From Clostridia bacterium (GTDB taxonomy: Bacteria > Bacillota > Clostridia > Christensenellales > CAG-138): a stretch of 33,202 nucleotides of DNA. Both the position numbers and the translations under genes were made by a program. The stretch is taken from NCBI GenBank assembly GCA_030530185.1, contig JAUMVL010000001.1, positions 1 to 33,202 of the forward strand, read 5' to 3'. The notes under the pieces were generated by a model that saw nothing but the letters and a program-made list of their open reading frames with translations, was not told where the DNA came from and ran no database searches. Positions 16,285 through 25,143 of the stretch are shown here, piece after piece (within the stretch, counting starts at the first letter, position 1; each line of letters opens with the position of its first letter).

Positions 16285-18444
16285 GTGCACAACAATCGAA
16301 ACCGAAAGAACCTGCTATTCGCCATGCTGCTTGGTGCGCTGCTGTGTGCATGCGCCGTCCGACCCGAACCGGAACTTCTTTCGGCAACGCGGACACCGAG
16401 CGAGATCGAGACGACCTTCATCGAGGTCGTTTCACCGTCACCGACGCCGCAGCCGCATCTCGATCTGGATGCGTACTGCATCGATGCGCAAAACGGTGTT
16501 TACGACATCCTGCCGCTGCTGGAGAAAAGCGAGCAGACGCTGCTGCATGCGGGCTTTTGTGCAAAAAACGAGCTGTTATTGTTTTCCACCGATCCGCAGG
16601 GCATACAGCTGATCGTGGAGCGATTCCGTCTGGATACCGGCACGCGCAGTCTTTGCTTTTCCGAAACACTCTCCGAACCGATTCGGGAGGCGGACGCCTT
16701 TTTATACTACGGCATGAATCCGCCCGCTTTGTATGACGCTGCCGCAGACGAGCTGCTGCTCTTTTCCTCCGACTGTACAGCGCTTACGCGGCTGCCCGTG
16801 AACGGACTCATCTTTTCCGAATGCCGGTGGGACGGACATTTCCTTTTGCTGTTTGACGAAGCCGACCGAACGTTGAAACGGTTTACGCCGGACGGTACCG
16901 AAACAGCGATCTTTCACCCCGGCTACCAATATCGCAACGGATCGCTGCTGTCTTTCGACCGGGACGGACGGTATGCGTCGATCACCGCAACCGATAACCG
17001 CACCGACGAGGACGGAACGCTCCTGATCGACCTGTCGAACGGTTCGATTCTCGGTTGGCAACCGGGCGAGGTTCGCCTTGCTTTCTCGGAAAACGGATAT
17101 GCGACGCTGACCCGCAACTATGAATGGAACGAAGCGGAAAGCCGAACCGAATTGGTCTTCAAATCCGCCGACAAATTGGATGCGGATACGGTCTACCTCG
17201 TTCGGCAGGAGCGCACGGACTATTATCCGACAATCTATCCGGCGGCAGGAAGCTATTTGTTCGAGGACTGGAACGGCGATTATACGCTGCGGGTCGCGGA
17301 GGCATCCGGACAGAACGCAATGCGTCTTATCGTCCCGCTCGATCCGTATCAGGCCATTGCCGATGCGATGCGTGAAGCCGCACCGACGCCGGATCCCGAC
17401 CGGGAGGAGGACGGAGACGACCTGTGGTTTCTTTACCCGCGGACAGAACGCGACGGCTTCGACGGGCATTATACGCTGACCTCGGTGCTGTGCGGAACCG
17501 AGCGGATCGGTATGCTGCTTTGGGATACATCGCGCGGTGAATCGGAAACGACTCCGGGCATTACAATGGCGGAGCCGCTGTTTGTCCCGATTCCGACCGT
17601 CTTGATCGACTGCGGCGACTTTGCGGAGCGAATTGCGCGCATCCATGACTCGTATGGAATTACCGTGCTGCTGGGGGAGGAAGCAAACCTTTCGATGGGA
17701 ACGCATAGCGCCGAGCCGCTGCCGATTGCCGCGAACCGGGACTTGCTTGATTCGGCGTTCGACATTTTGGAAAGCACGCTGTCCGACTACCCGCCGCAGT
17801 TTTTCCAAACGCTTTGCCAAGGCTCCCTTGATGGAATCGTCCTGGAATTCTGCGGCACGATCCGCTCCACGGACACCACGTCGCTCGACTTCCCGTCCGC
17901 GCTGACGCGCACGCTCGATCGCTACCGCGTGATCGTTTTGGATACGCATTTTCTCTCCGACATGCGATATACGATCTTTCACGAAGTCTCGCACATGATT
18001 GACACCAAGCTCGATGACGACCCGAATCTCGACGAAGCGATCTGGAGCAGCGAGGGATGGGACGCGCTGAACCCAAGCGGGTTTTCGTATTACTTTGCCT
18101 ATAACGAAGAGGATGGCGATCCGTATGACGTCGTCGGCTCCTCGGATTATACCGAATGGGACAGCGCGTATCAGGAGCACGGCAAGCAGGAAGCGGTGTA
18201 CTTTGTCGATATCTATTCCAAAACCTTCCCGACCGAGGATCGCGCGGTTCTGCTCGGAACGCTGCTGCGCGATGACGAAAACGATGCTCTTTTGCGCTGC
18301 CCGCATCTGTTTGAAAAGCTCTGCTACTATGCGCGCGCGATCCGCGCCTGCTTCGATCCGGGCGGAACGCTGTGGCCCGAGCCGACTGTTTGGGAACGTC
18401 GGATCGAATCGCTGCAAAATGATATTGGGGAGAATGCAGCGTAA
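16285..18444 (+). CDS. putative lipoprotein with a C-terminal HExxH (zinc metallopeptidase-like) motif
   Basis: 719 aa. GTG start with AGGAGG 6 nt upstream. Signal peptide with a lipobox-like LLGALLCAC. HEVSH encoded at 17980-17994. No family recognised by eye. Confidence 0.65.
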   Translation: MHNNRNRKNLLFAMLLGALLCACAVRPEPELLSATRTPSEIETTFIEVVSPSPTPQPHLDLDAYCIDAQNGVYDILPLLEKSEQTLLHAGFCAKNELLLFSTDPQGIQLIVERFRLDTGTRSLCFSETLSEPIREADAFLYYGMNPPALYDAAADELLLFSSDCTALTRLPVNGLIFSECRWDGHFLLLFDEADRTLKRFTPDGTETAIFHPGYQYRNGSLLSFDRDGRYASITATDNRTDEDGTLLIDLSNGSILGWQPGEVRLAFSENGYATLTRNYEWNEAESRTELVFKSADKLDADTVYLVRQERTDYYPTIYPAAGSYLFEDWNGDYTLRVAEASGQNAMRLIVPLDPYQAIADAMREAAPTPDPDREEDGDDLWFLYPRTERDGFDGHYTLTSVLCGTERIGMLLWDTSRGESETTPGITMAEPLFVPIPTVLIDCGDFAERIARIHDSYGITVLLGEEANLSMGTHSAEPLPIAANRDLLDSAFDILESTLSDYPPQFFQTLCQGSLDGIVLEFCGTIRSTDTTSLDFPSALTRTLDRYRVIVLDTHFLSDMRYTIFHEVSHMIDTKLDDDPNLDEAIWSSEGWDALNPSGFSYYFAYNEEDGDPYDVVGSSDYTEWDSAYQEHGKQEAVYFVDIYSKTFPTEDRAVLLGTLLRDDENDALLRCPHLFEKLCYYARAIRACFDPGGTLWPEPTVWERRIESLQNDIGENAA

Positions 18445-21498: not shown

Positions 21499-21527
21499 TT
21501 GACAATTTGCGCATGCTCTGCTATCAT
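21499..21527 (+). promoter_or_regulatory. promoter candidate TTGACA-17-TATCAT with TGn extension for scfA
   Basis: ttgaca atttgcgcatgctctgc tatcat, 34 nt upstream of the scfA ATG. Confidence 0.55.
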
Positions 21528-21560
21528 ATATGAGATGAAATATGTTTGGAGGATTGTACC

Positions 21561-21707
21561 ATGACGCATATCAAAACGATCAAAACCCGCAATCTGTGCG
21601 AGAGCGCAAAGAACGGCGGCTGCGGCGAGTGCCAGACTTCCTGCCAGTCCGCTTGCAAGACCAGCTGCGGTATCGCAAATCAGAAGTGCGAAAAGTCGGC
21701 CAAATAA
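21561..21707 (+). CDS. scfA: SCIFF (six-cysteines-in-forty-five) ranthipeptide precursor
   Basis: Hand-translated 48 aa: MTHIKTIKTRNLCESAKNGGCGECQTSCQSACKTSCGIANQKCEKSAK. It carries the invariant GGCGECQTSCQSACKTSC core. GGAGGA RBS. It lies immediately upstream of the cognate radical-SAM maturase. The ORF track only shows a spurious 75-aa ORF in another frame. Confidence 0.92.
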   Translation: MTHIKTIKTRNLCESAKNGGCGECQTSCQSACKTSCGIANQKCEKSAK

Positions 21708-21732
21708 CCGACGTCAAGCAAACGTTACAGGG

Positions 21733-21760
21733 AATGCCGTCCTTTTCGGGCGGCATTTTT
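21733..21760 (+). terminator. intercistronic hairpin plus T-run between scfA and scfB (possible partial terminator)
   Basis: aatgccg(tcc) ttttc (ggg)cggcatt followed by ttt. It sits 26 nt after the scfA stop and 20 nt before the scfB ATG. Confidence 0.4.
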
Positions 21761-21779
21761 ACGGAATAGAGAGGTTTTT

Positions 21780-23171
21780 ATGATTCATGCCTATCAACTC
21801 GGCGGATACAACATCGTTCTCGATGTCTGCTCCGGCGCGGTGCACGCGGTGGACGAGGTCAGCTATGCGCTGATTACGCACTTTGAAGGCGTCGATCGCG
21901 AAAAGCTGATCGACGGGCTCCATGCGGCACACCCTGACGACCCGATGTATACCGTCGAGGAGCTGAACGCCTGCTACGATGAAATCCTTGCCCTGAAGGA
22001 GGCCGGCCAGCTGTTTTCGCCGGATACGTTCCGACCGATGGCAAATACGCTGAAAAGCCGCACCTCGGGCGTCGTCAAGGCGCTGTGCCTGCACGTTGCG
22101 CATACCTGCAACCTCAACTGCGCTTACTGCTTTGCAAGCCAGGGCAAATACAAGGGCGAGCGGGCGGTCATGTCCTTTGAAGTCGGCAAACAGGCATTGG
22201 ACTTTCTGGTCGCACATTCCGGCACGCGCAAGAATCTCGAAGTGGACTTTTTCGGCGGCGAACCGCTGATGAATTTCGACGTGGTCAAACAACTCGTTGC
22301 CTACGCCAGAACGCTCGAACCGAAATTTCATAAGACCTTCCGCTTTACCCTGACCACCAACGGCGTGCTGATCGACGACGACGTGATCGATTTCTGCAAC
22401 CGGGAAATGAGCAACGTCGTTTTGAGTCTTGACGGGCGCAAGGAAATCCACGACCGCTATCGCGTGGACTATGCGGGAAACGGCAGCTGGGAAAAAATCG
22501 TGCCGAAGTTTCAAAAGCTCGTTGCGGCGCGCGGCGGGAAGAATTACTATATGCGCGGCACATTCACGCATGCCAACCCCGATTTTCTCAAGGACATTCA
22601 GACGATGCTCGATCTCGGCTTTACCGAGCTTTCGATGGAGCCTGTCGTCTGTGCCGAGGACAGCCCCGATCGGCTGACTGAAACGGATCTTCCGATCGTC
22701 TGCGAACAGTATGAACAGCTTGCGGAATTGCTGATCCGGCGGCGCAGGGAGGGACGGCCGTTTACGTTCTATCATTATATGATCGACCTGACGGGCGGCC
22801 CATGCATCTATAAGCGCATTTCGGGCTGCGGATCCGGCACCGAATACATGGCAGTCACACCGTGGGGCGATCTGTACCCGTGCCACCAGTTTGTCGGCGA
22901 GGAGCGCTTCAAGCTCGGCGATATCTGGACCGGTGTGACGAATACCGCCGTACAGAATGAATTTGCCGGTTGCAACGTCTATGCGCACCCGGAATGCGGC
23001 GAATGCTGGGCACGGCTGTACTGCTCCGGCGGCTGCGCGGCAAACGCCTATCACGCAACCGGTTCAGTGACCGGTGTCTATCGCTATGGCTGCGAGCTGT
23101 TTCGAAAGCGCATGGAATGCGCGATCATGGCAGCGGTGGACGAACAGCTTGCGGAGAACGGCGATGTCTGA
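21780..23171 (+). CDS. scfB: radical SAM/SPASM thioether cross-link-forming SCIFF peptide maturase
   Basis: 463 aa. N-terminus MIHAYQLGGYNIVLDVCSGAVHAVDE is typical of ScfB. Radical-SAM motif CNLNCAYC. SPASM Cys clusters (CGSG...PCHQF, CGECWARLYCSGGCAANA). Adjacent to scfA. Confidence 0.93.
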   Translation: MIHAYQLGGYNIVLDVCSGAVHAVDEVSYALITHFEGVDREKLIDGLHAAHPDDPMYTVEELNACYDEILALKEAGQLFSPDTFRPMANTLKSRTSGVVKALCLHVAHTCNLNCAYCFASQGKYKGERAVMSFEVGKQALDFLVAHSGTRKNLEVDFFGGEPLMNFDVVKQLVAYARTLEPKFHKTFRFTLTTNGVLIDDDVIDFCNREMSNVVLSLDGRKEIHDRYRVDYAGNGSWEKIVPKFQKLVAARGGKNYYMRGTFTHANPDFLKDIQTMLDLGFTELSMEPVVCAEDSPDRLTETDLPIVCEQYEQLAELLIRRRREGRPFTFYHYMIDLTGGPCIYKRISGCGSGTEYMAVTPWGDLYPCHQFVGEERFKLGDIWTGVTNTAVQNEFAGCNVYAHPECGECWARLYCSGGCAANAYHATGSVTGVYRYGCELFRKRMECAIMAAVDEQLAENGDV

Positions 23172-24513
23172 ACGGACCCCGACGCCGATCTGTGATTTTG
23201 TCCGCGCCTATGCCGCACGCAATCCTGTCCGGCTGCATATGCCCGGCCATAAGGGGGGCGATGATCTCGGCCCGGAGCCGCTCGACATCACCGAAATCGA
23301 CGGCGCCGATACACTGTTTGAAGCAAGCGGAATCATCGCCGAAAGCGAGGCGTACGCTTCCCGGCACTTCGGCGCGCATACATTCTATTCAGTCGAAGGC
23401 TCTTCGCTCTGCATCCGCGCGATGCTGTTCCTTGCCGCACGGCGCGTTCCGAGCGGCCGCCGTGCACGCGTGCTGGCCGCGCGCAATGTGCACAAAGCCT
23501 TTTTGAGTGCGGCGGCGCTGCTCGATCTCGATGTATCGTGGCTCTATCCCGCATCGGACTGCGGCCTGCTTGCGTCTGACTGTACGCCCGCTTCGGTGGA
23601 AGATGCGCTGCAACAAAGCGACGAGCCGTTTTGCGCCGTCTATCTGACCGCGCCGGACTATCTTGGAAATGTGCCGGATGTTGCCGGGATCGCAACGGTG
23701 TGCCATCGTTATGGTGTGCCGCTGCTGGTGGACAATGCGCACGGCGCCTATCTGAAATTTTTACCGGTTTCGCGGCACCCGATCGACCTTGGCGCCGACC
23801 TATGCTGTGACTCGGCGCATAAAACATTGCCGGCCCTGACCGGAACGGCGTATCTGCATGCTGCACAGAACGACCGATACGGGTTTACGCAGAACGCCAA
23901 GGATGCGCTCGCCCTGTTCGGTTCGACCAGTCCTTCTTATTTGCTGCTGCAATCGCTCGATCGGCTGAACTGCACGCTGGACGACTGTCCCAAGCAGCTT
24001 TCTGCCTTTGTTCCCAAGATCGATGCGCTGAAAAACGAACTGCACACCATCGGATACCGGCTGCTCGGCGACGAACCGCTGAAACTCACGATCGACGCGA
24101 ACGCATACGGCTATACGGGATCCGCGCTAAAGGAGGCGCTTCGATCCTGCGGCATCGAGCCGGAGTTTGCCGATCCCGACTGGCTCGTTCTGATGCTGTC
24201 GCCCTGCAACTCTGACGAGGAGCTTGACCGGCTTTTGACCGCGCTGCGCAGCATCAAGAGACGGAAGGCAATCATCCGTTTGCAGACGCCGTATGCCGTC
24301 CCGCAGATCGCTTGCTCGATTCGCACGGCGATGCTCTCCGAATCCGAACGTCTGCCGGTCGAAAAAACCTGCGGCCGTGTGCTTGCGCAGCCATGCGTCA
24401 GCTGTCCGCCGGCGGTCCCGATCGTCATGTGCGGAGAGATCATCGACCAAAGCGCGATCGAACGATTCCGCTATTACGGAACAAAGCAGCTTACCGTTCT
24501 GAAAAAGGGATGA
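23164..24513 (+). CDS. PLP-dependent Orn/Lys/Arg decarboxylase family protein (YaaO/SpeA-like)
   Basis: Start moved to ATG 23164 (GGAGAA RBS 5 nt upstream). The motif LHMPGHKGG near the N-terminus, DSAHKTLPALTG (Lys for PLP) and overall size fit the OKR_DC_1 family. The ATG lies 8 nt inside scfB. Confidence 0.82.
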   Translation: MSERTPTPICDFVRAYAARNPVRLHMPGHKGGDDLGPEPLDITEIDGADTLFEASGIIAESEAYASRHFGAHTFYSVEGSSLCIRAMLFLAARRVPSGRRARVLAARNVHKAFLSAAALLDLDVSWLYPASDCGLLASDCTPASVEDALQQSDEPFCAVYLTAPDYLGNVPDVAGIATVCHRYGVPLLVDNAHGAYLKFLPVSRHPIDLGADLCCDSAHKTLPALTGTAYLHAAQNDRYGFTQNAKDALALFGSTSPSYLLLQSLDRLNCTLDDCPKQLSAFVPKIDALKNELHTIGYRLLGDEPLKLTIDANAYGYTGSALKEALRSCGIEPEFADPDWLVLMLSPCNSDEELDRLLTALRSIKRRKAIIRLQTPYAVPQIACSIRTAMLSESERLPVEKTCGRVLAQPCVSCPPAVPIVMCGEIIDQSAIERFRYYGTKQLTVLKKG

Positions 24514-24551: not shown

Positions 24552-24581
24552 TTGAATTCTGTTTCTTGTTTGTGGTATGAT
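24552..24581 (+). promoter_or_regulatory. promoter candidate TTGAAT-18-TATGAT with TGn extension
   Basis: ttgaat tctgtttcttgtttgtgg tatgat, upstream of the lipoprotein gene. Confidence 0.45.
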
Positions 24582-24609
24582 ACACAAACAGGACAAAAAG
24601 GAGATTCCC

Positions 24610-25143
24610 ATGAAAAAATTCTGTTTGTATAGTTTCATCGTTTTGCTTGTTCTTGGCCTGATCGGCTGTGCACCGAGAAGCACGTCCACCGGCCCCGAAA
24701 ACCCGACGTTTGTCGTCGTGGCCGAAAACGCCGAGATTGCCGAGGTGCTGGCTTATTTTCAAGCGCACTCCGGGTACCTGCCCACCGTCGTTACGCTGAA
24801 CGAGGAGACGCTTGCGTCCCTTTCCGAACAGCTGAAAACGGATGGAGCATCCGCCGAACGCGCGGATGTGCTCAAAAAGGCTGCCGAAGGCGCAACCTGC
24901 CTCGTGCTCAAATCCGACGCGCTGATCGCCGAATACGAAGCGCTGGGCTTCCGCGTGGATAACGAAGAGCTCAAAGCCCTAACCTCCTCCTTCCGCATCG
25001 ACAATGCAGACCTGCTTGGTCTGAAGATCGTGCAGATGCCCGCCGGCAGCGAGCTGAACCTCGACGCGCTGAAGGCGCTCGCCTCCTGGATGACCGGCGC
25101 CGAGGCCAAATACCTTGCCGACAATCCCGATCTTTTGAAATAA
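24610..25143 (+). CDS. small lipoprotein of unknown function
   Basis: Start moved to ATG 24610 (AAAGGAG RBS). Signal peptide with lipobox MKKFCLYSFIVLLVLGLIGC. No family recognised. Confidence 0.6.
   Translation: MKKFCLYSFIVLLVLGLIGCAPRSTSTGPENPTFVVVAENAEIAEVLAYFQAHSGYLPTVVTLNEETLASLSEQLKTDGASAERADVLKKAAEGATCLVLKSDALIAEYEALGFRVDNEELKALTSSFRIDNADLLGLKIVQMPAGSELNLDALKALASWMTGAEAKYLADNPDLLK

What the first reader, a model, noticed from the sequence alone, without database searches (positions are those of the whole stretch)
21561..21707. SCIFF precursor with a non-canonical C-terminal core (Gly in place of the Thr after the fifth Cys) and a seventh Cys in the leader
The 48-aa peptide keeps the invariant GGCGECQTSCQSACKTSC block. 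It then reads GIANQKC where, as I remember the family consensus, SCIFF peptides read TVGNQxC.

To my recollection, the only experimentally mapped cross-link in this family is in the Clostridium thermocellum CteA/CteB pair. That link joins the fourth core Cys to the gamma carbon of the Thr immediately after the fifth Cys. Here that residue is Gly, so the maturase would need a different acceptor or cross-link pattern.

An additional Cys (NLCES) lies in the leader region, which normally lacks Cys.
Basis: partly seen in the sequence, partly recalled or inferred. Interest (0 to 1): 0.6.

Follow-up and report, generated by a model that had tools for sequence, protein, structure and literature searches.

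The report
SCIFF precursor from common Gly-variant clade
This is a normal, already-annotated gene for a small cysteine-rich peptide (SCIFF) next to its radical-SAM modifying enzyme, and the glycine and extra cysteine that looked odd are the standard signature of a large branch of the family in uncultured gut and rumen bacteria.

Summary
Window 21561-21707 (+) encodes a 48-aa peptide (P0001) with Gly at residue 37, directly after the fifth core Cys, and a seventh Cys at residue 13.

It is a clear SCIFF. It scores 78.8 bits on TIGR03973 (cut-off 50), and a ScfB maturase lies 72 nt downstream (TIGR03974, 735.8 bits, cut-off 425).

Neither feature is a one-off:
- Gly37 occurs in about 3-4% of species genomes sampled across the phylum.
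- On a ScfB tree, all 19 Gly-type systems form one clade, so a single Thr-to-Gly change is enough.
- The leader Cys defines one subclade inside it.
- The 80 closest species genomes all carry both features.
- The peptide's 90% cluster has 2064 members, some named SCIFF by NCBI.

Two reviews state that in vitro work mapped Cys32-Thr37, while the in vivo gamma-carbon work mapped Cys32-Thr34. Thr34 is invariant in every SCIFF examined. All six CteB active-site residues and all ten cluster-binding Cys are kept in this ScfB.

Verdict: an ordinary member of a known family. The one useful point is that this clade is a natural Thr37 knock-out bearing on the Thr34/Thr37 discrepancy.

The parts
21499..21527 (+). 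Promoter-like site (TTGACA, 17 nt spacer, TATCAT, with TG before the second hexamer) upstream of scfA
   Evidence: 11 of 12 consensus matches. This is a consensus match only, not shown to be functional.
21549..21553 (+). Ribosome-binding site GGAGG, 7 nt before the ATG of scfA
   Evidence: Read directly from the sequence.
21561..21707 (+). scfA, the 48-aa SCIFF precursor (P0001)
   Evidence: TIGR03973 78.8 bits (cut-off 50) and PF13165 80.9 bits (cut-off 27). The exact sequence is already in NCBI nr, in a 2064-member cluster some of whose members are named 'six-cysteine ranthipeptide SCIFF'.
21597..21599 (+). Cys13 codon (TGC), the seventh Cys, in the leader motif NLCES
   Evidence: Shared by all 80 nearest species genomes. 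It marks one ScfB subclade with SH-aLRT 97.
21660..21662 (+). Thr34 codon (ACC) in the motif CKTSC; the alternative mapped acceptor, retained here
   Evidence: Thr34 is invariant in 173 distinct SCIFF core segments. Reviews report Cys32-Thr34 for CteA in vivo.
21669..21671 (+). Gly37 codon (GGT), at the position that is Thr in most SCIFFs
   Evidence: It is the clade signature G[IV]ANQxC.
21730..21760 (+). Hairpin with a 13-bp stem and 5-nt loop, followed by UUUUUA, between scfA and scfB; possibly a partial terminator that sets the precursor-to-enzyme ratio (inferred)
   Evidence: fold of 21705-21785 has an MFE of -24 kcal/mol, z = -3.2, and 0 of 200 shuffles fold as well. The consensus terminator scan did not call it.
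21780..23171 (+). scfB, the 463-aa radical SAM/SPASM thioether-forming SCIFF maturase
   Evidence: TIGR03974 735.8 bits (cut-off 425). 537 bits to CteB (PDB 5WGG/5WHY) over the full length. All ten cluster-ligand Cys and all six CteB catalytic-site residues are present.

Best explanation
scfA and scfB form a canonical two-gene SCIFF (ranthipeptide) system.

The 48-aa precursor is most likely bound through its N-terminal leader by the N-terminal peptide-recognition (RRE) domain of ScfB, as in CteB. A core Cys thiolate is thought to bind auxiliary cluster 1. The SAM-derived radical abstracts a hydrogen atom from an acceptor side chain, and a thioether forms.

Gly37 and Cys13 are inherited signatures of a large monophyletic ScfA/ScfB subclade, not a local oddity. 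The Gly clade has the core G[IV]ANQxC; within it, the leader-Cys subclade has the leader [ND]LCxSAK. This subclade is abundant in uncultured gut and rumen Clostridia.

The enzyme's active-site shell is unchanged and Thr34 is invariant. The most likely cross-link here is therefore the one reported for CteA in vivo, Cys32 sulfur to the gamma carbon of Thr34. On that reading position 37 is not an essential acceptor.

Shown: family membership, clade structure, conservation, purifying selection.
Inferred: the cross-link position, the role of the hairpin, and any role of Cys13.
The biological function of SCIFF peptides is unsettled. A review lists quorum sensing, citing Chen et al. 2020.
For: - HMM scores exceed the curated cut-offs for both genes.
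- ScfB aligns end to end with CteB.
- The six CteB catalytic-site proximity residues (F112, F152, T186, S210, H363, Q364; PMC10288494) are identical in all 19 Gly-type ScfBs and in 37-38 of the 38 Thr-type ScfBs.
- The ten Fe-S ligand Cys are present (numbering from PMC10177961).
- On the ScfB tree, all 19 Gly-type systems form one clade (SH-aLRT 99), and the Gly/Thr state needs one change. The leader-Cys type forms one subclade (SH-aLRT 97).
- Both features occur in all 118 parseable nearest protein clusters and in all 80 nearest species genomes.
- Thr34 and Ser35 are invariant in 173 distinct core segments. Thr26, Cys36 and residue 37 vary.
- Reviews report the in vivo link as Cys32-Thr34 at the gamma carbon.
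- Synonymous codon differences outnumber non-synonymous ones.
Against: - No cross-link was measured for any Gly-type SCIFF.
- Two independent in vitro studies mapped Thr37 as the acceptor. If that is the physiological site, this clade must differ.
- Gly-type ScfBs carry clade-specific substitutions close to the auxiliary-cluster ligands. Window residue T354 replaces His four residues after the AC1 ligand Cys350. L413 replaces Phe/Tyr between AC2 and AC1 ligands. Y333 replaces Phe. These could reflect adaptation to a changed substrate.
- The primary papers (Hudson 2019, Grove 2017, Bruender 2016) are not held, so the Thr34 statement rests on two reviews.
Confidence: 0.78

Rival explanations
1. 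Changed cross-link topology. Thr37 is the true acceptor in canonical SCIFFs. The Gly clade lost it and now makes a different thioether pattern, using another acceptor such as Thr34, Thr26 or Asn40, and possibly the extra donor Cys13. ScfB would have co-adapted.
For: - In vitro mapping gave Cys32-Thr37 in two systems.
- The Thr-to-Gly change coincides with a distinct ScfB clade.
- That clade carries signature substitutions next to auxiliary-cluster ligands: T354, L413 and Y333.
- The leader Cys is strictly conserved in at least 80 species.
Against: - The six catalytic-site residues do not differ between the clades.
- Thr34, the in vivo mapped acceptor according to two reviews, is invariant.
- Any old clade accumulates signature substitutions, so they are not specific evidence.
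- 29 Gly-type cores among the representatives, and 9 of 11 Gly-type genomes in the phylum sample, lack the leader Cys. Cys13 therefore cannot be a compensation required by Gly37.
Confidence: 0.18
2. Decaying or non-functional precursor. The Gly and extra Cys are degenerative changes in a peptide that is no longer matured.
For: The scfA-scfB pair was not found in 17 of 27 other genomes of the genus, five of them 92-97% complete. The system is therefore dispensable in this genus.
Against: - Both genes are intact and score above their cut-offs.
- The core is identical across species despite 7-12 synonymous codon changes.
- The same peptide type is kept in at least 80 species, each with a ScfB match on the same locus.
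Confidence: 0.02

Closest known systems
CteA/CteB (thermocellin) of Clostridium thermocellum; PDB 5WGG/5WHY
   Same: - Same family models apply: TIGR03973 and TIGR03974.
- ScfB aligns with CteB over its full length at 537 bits.
- RS, AC1 and AC2 ligand Cys and the six active-site residues are the same.
- The six-Cys spacing and the CKTSC motif with Thr34 are the same.
   Different: - Residue 37 is Gly instead of Thr, with GIANQ in place of the majority TVGNQ tail.
- There is an extra Cys at leader position 13.
- ScfB has clade-specific residues near the auxiliary clusters: T354, L413 and Y333.
Tte1186a/Tte1186 of Caldanaerobacter subterraneus
   Same: It is the same SCIFF family. It forms a single Cys-Thr thioether in vitro, and the substrate Cys binds AC1 (PMC10177961).
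   Different: The acceptor mapped in vitro, Thr37, does not exist in the window peptide. The regiochemistry of the Tte1186a link is itself stated to be unknown.
PapA/PapB (freyrasin) of Paenibacillus polymyxa
   Same: The maturase is a homologous radical SAM/SPASM enzyme; the NF047865 PapB model scores 271.9 bits, below its cut-off of 340. The chemistry is a thioether to a non-alpha carbon.
   Different: PapB makes six Cys-X3-Asp beta-thioethers. The window peptide has no CX3D motifs.
NxxcA/NxxcB of Streptococcus orisratti
   Same: It is a ranthipeptide with a Cys-Asn beta-thioether in an NxxC motif (review PMC8326336). The near-invariant SCIFF tail NQxC, residues 40-43 here, has the same NxxC spacing. 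This is a resemblance only.
   Different: It is a different precursor family, and no SCIFF link to Asn has been reported. Not tested here.

Membership tests
SCIFF precursor (NCBIfam TIGR03973 / Pfam PF13165) | Score above the curated cut-off of the equivalog model | tested here: met
   TIGR03973 78.8 bits against a cut-off of 50. PF13165 80.9 bits against a cut-off of 27.
SCIFF precursor (NCBIfam TIGR03973 / Pfam PF13165) | Six Cys in about 45 residues with spacing C-x2-C-x3-C-x3-C-x3-C-x6-C | tested here: met
   The six core Cys are at residues 21, 24, 28, 32, 36 and 43, and the peptide is 48 aa. There is also one extra Cys at residue 13.
SCIFF precursor (NCBIfam TIGR03973 / Pfam PF13165) | Encoded next to a ScfB-type radical SAM maturase | tested here: met
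   scfB starts 72 nt after the scfA stop on the same strand.
SCIFF precursor (NCBIfam TIGR03973 / Pfam PF13165) | Thr directly after the fifth Cys (the in vitro mapped acceptor Thr37) | tested here: not met
   The residue is Gly37. This is not a defining feature of the models. A whole clade with Gly scores above the cut-off, and some other families even lack the fifth Cys.
SCIFF precursor (NCBIfam TIGR03973 / Pfam PF13165) | Thioether cross-link installed by the maturase | not testable with these tools
   Requires co-expression and MS/NMR.
ScfB maturase (NCBIfam TIGR03974) | Score above the cut-off, and not the ScfB-related orphan type (NF040492) | tested here: met
   TIGR03974 735.8 bits against a cut-off of 425. 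NF040492 542.6 bits, below its cut-off of 855.
ScfB maturase (NCBIfam TIGR03974) | CxxxCxxC radical SAM motif plus the seven SPASM Cys that bind AC1 and AC2 | tested here: met
   Cys110/114/117 bind the RS cluster, Cys350/368/419 bind AC1, and Cys406/409/415/438 bind AC2. These align to CteB C104/108/111, C344/362/413 and C400/403/409/432.
ScfB maturase (NCBIfam TIGR03974) | The six CteB catalytic-site proximity residues (F112, F152, T186, S210, H363, Q364) | tested here: met
   They are identical at window positions 118, 158, 192, 216, 369 and 370, and in all 19 Gly-type ScfBs.

The most novel reading that the evidence does not exclude
The Gly37 clade makes a ranthipeptide whose thioether topology differs from that of Thr-type SCIFFs. 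In the leader-Cys subclade, Cys13 might also act as an additional donor or as a ligand for a cluster. The clade would then be a chemically distinct SCIFF subclass. Its natural Thr37 knock-out would also resolve the Thr34 versus Thr37 discrepancy in the literature.
Probability: 0.18. Interest if true: 0.5.

Novelty: already known. Interest (0 to 1): 0.2.

Why it matters
As a gene it adds little. The exact peptide is in public databases, members of its cluster are annotated as SCIFF, and the odd residues are clade signatures.

The useful by-product is comparative:
- Thr34 is the only invariant Thr of the SCIFF core.
- Thr37 is replaced by Gly in a whole, strongly conserved clade whose maturase keeps an unchanged active-site shell.

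This argues that Thr37 is not a universally required acceptor. It also points to a simple experiment that could settle the published in vitro (Thr37) versus in vivo (Thr34) discrepancy. Members of this clade are abundant in gut and rumen metagenomes, so whatever SCIFF peptides do, this is a major natural form.

Tried and rejected
- The primary papers were not held: Hudson 2019, Grove 2017 and Bruender 2016. The acceptor positions are therefore taken from two reviews.
- A PDB sequence search with the peptide found no CteA chain, only chance hits at E > 0.7. Contacts of leader position 13 with the RRE could not be examined.
- The terminator scan did not call the scfA-scfB hairpin, whose T run is too short. 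Folding supports the stem.
- I considered that Gly37 and Cys13 might be coupled compensatory changes. I rejected this because many Gly-type SCIFFs lack the leader Cys (29 of the 129 Gly-type cores; 9 of 11 genomes). Thr-type SCIFFs of the same order also carry leader Cys at other positions.
- I considered a dedicated protease or exporter near the genes. None was found. The neighbours are a ParB-like protein, an aldo/keto reductase with an Fe-S domain, a PLP-dependent decarboxylase-like protein and a Cthe_2159-domain protein.
- Structure prediction was not run. The tool returns no coordinates, so it could not place the clade-specific ScfB residues.

Full report
**Observation.** The ATG follows a GGAGG ribosome-binding site. 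The six core Cys lie at residues 21, 24, 28, 32, 36 and 43. Residue 37, directly after the fifth Cys, is Gly (GGT, 21669-21671). A seventh Cys sits at residue 13 in the motif NLCES (TGC, 21597-21599). A 463-aa ORF starts 72 nt downstream on the same strand (21780-23171).

**Family membership.**
- The peptide scores 78.8 bits on TIGR03973 (cut-off 50) and 80.9 bits on PF13165 (cut-off 27).
- The downstream protein scores 735.8 bits on TIGR03974, the SCIFF maturase model (cut-off 425). It stays below the cut-off of the 'not_ScfB' orphan model.
- It aligns over its full length with CteB (PDB 5WGG/5WHY) at 537 bits.
- The CxxxCxxC motif and the seven SPASM Cys that bind the two auxiliary clusters in CteB are all present (numbering from PMC10177961; residues checked).
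- The genome holds one SCIFF gene.
- A promoter-like site precedes scfA. A stable 13-bp hairpin lies between scfA and scfB.
- The neighbours are a ParB-like protein, an aldo/keto reductase with an Fe-S domain, a PLP decarboxylase-like protein and a Cthe_2159-domain protein. No protease or exporter was seen.

**How unusual Gly37 is.** I sampled 401 species genomes spread over the phylum.
- 324 have a SCIFF by HMM.
- 288 match a degenerate DNA pattern for CKTSC-xxx-NQ-x-C.
- 11 of these, including the window's genome, have Gly after the fifth Cys. Excluding the own genome, that is 10 of 287, or about 3.5%, spread over six GTDB families.

Gly is therefore a minority state at species level, but it is far from a singleton.
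- All 118 parseable proteins among the 120 nearest 90%-identity clusters read G[IVL]ANQxC and carry the leader Cys. Some of these clusters have more than 2000 member sequences.
- Among 132 SCIFF cores parsed from the nearest 50%-identity representatives, 129 are Gly-type. Of these, 100 have the leader Cys and 29 do not.
- The 80 best loci from a scan of one genome per species all carry both features, with the leader motif [ND]LCxSAK[NK] in 76 of them. All are uncultured gut or rumen Clostridia, labelled Oscillospiraceae, Acutalibacteraceae, Ruminococcus sp., Christensenellales and similar.
- The exact 48-aa sequence is already in NCBI nr, JGI, ENA and Logan. Its cluster has 2064 members, and the named members read are annotated 'six-cysteine ranthipeptide SCIFF'.

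**Evolution.** I built a maximum-likelihood tree of 57 ScfB proteins taken from loci with Gly-type and Thr-type precursors.
- All 19 Gly-type systems fall in one clade (SH-aLRT 99), so one Thr-to-Gly change suffices.
- Its sister group is a Thr-type group of the same class.
- The eight leader-Cys systems, from the window's genus and one other family, form one subclade (SH-aLRT 97).
- Leader Cys at other positions occur in Thr-type SCIFFs of the same order, 7 to 10 residues before the first core Cys. One Thr-type peptide of the same class has one 4 residues before it. Overall the leader-Cys state needs five changes on the tree.

Gly37 and Cys13 are thus separate, inherited clade markers rather than a coupled pair.

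**The maturase.** The six CteB catalytic-site proximity residues defined by Mitchell and co-workers are F112, F152, T186, S210, H363 and Q364 (PMC10288494). They are identical in the window's ScfB and in all 19 Gly-type ScfBs, and in 37-38 of the 38 Thr-type ScfBs aligned.

A few positions do separate the clades. They include T354 (His in most others, four residues after an AC1 ligand), L413 (Phe/Tyr, between AC2 and AC1 ligands) and Y333 (Phe). These could be substrate co-adaptation or simple clade history. I cannot tell which.

**The premise about the acceptor.** Two reviews give the same account (PMC8326336; PMC8172795).
- In vitro work on Tte1186a (2016) and CteA (2017) mapped a single Cys32-Thr37 link, then assumed to be at the alpha carbon.
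- In vivo co-expression (Hudson 2019) showed a gamma-carbon link and mapped it to Cys32-Thr34.
- Both reviews call this an unresolved discrepancy.

CteA/CteB is also not the only mapped pair. I could not open the primary papers.

**Conservation bears on this.** In 173 distinct core segments collected here, Thr34 and Ser35 never vary. The set is enriched for relatives of the query.
- Thr26 is often Ala, Asn or Val.
- The fifth Cys itself is Leu or Ile in two whole families, with cores CKTSLTVGNQ and CKTSITVSNQ.
- Residue 37 is Gly in the clade described.

The only invariant Thr is therefore Thr34, which this peptide keeps (ACC, 21660-21662).

**Conclusion.** This is an ordinary, already-annotated SCIFF system of a large Gly-type clade. 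It most likely receives the conserved Cys32-Thr34 thioether; that step is inferred, not shown. A changed topology in this clade is not excluded (about 0.18).

Noticed in passing
window 23074-24513 (+): A PLP-dependent Orn/Lys/Arg-decarboxylase-family gene (PF01276, 113 bits) directly follows scfB. tblastn finds it downstream of scfB in 62 of the 80 leader-Cys-type loci. It was not found within about 2.5 kb downstream in 16 Thr-type and 2 Gly-type (no leader Cys) genomes. It could be a functional partner or plain lineage synteny.
   Followed up: partly
genomes of the window's genus (G401-G439): The SCIFF system is patchy in this genus. scfA was found in only 10 of 27 other genomes. Five genomes that are 92-97% complete have neither scfA nor a ScfB above the cut-off; their best radical SAM hit scores about 130 bits. 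This contrasts with 324 of 401 genomes across the phylum.
   Followed up: partly
L043-L047 and L069-L071: Two whole families carry five-Cys SCIFFs in which the fifth Cys is Leu (CKTSLTVGNQ) or Ile (CKTSITVSNQ), together with CG[NKQR]C in place of CGEC. All still score above the TIGR03973 cut-off.
   Followed up: partly
L059, L061, L062, L064 (same order) and L049 (same class): Thr-type SCIFFs carry a leader Cys at other positions, 4 to 10 residues before the first core Cys. Extra leader Cys therefore arose repeatedly in this part of the tree, needing five changes on the ScfB tree.
   Followed up: partly
proteins P0122, P0123, P0002: Some metagenome ORFs encode two SCIFF units head to tail in one reading frame (92-108 aa), or a chimeric unit. 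These are either true tandem fusions or assembly artefacts.
   Followed up: no
window 21678-21689 (residues 40-43, NQKC): The near-invariant SCIFF tail N-Q-x-C has the same spacing as the NxxC motif that is cross-linked (Cys to the beta carbon of Asn) in the ranthipeptide NxxcA (review PMC8326336; conservation). No such link is reported for SCIFF.
   Followed up: no
window 16285-18444 (+) and 24577-25143 (+): A 719-aa ORF and a 188-aa ORF have no Pfam match at E <= 0.01. The 188-aa ORF also has no NCBIfam match. The 719-aa ORF is overlapped by a 571-aa ORF on the other strand.
   Followed up: no
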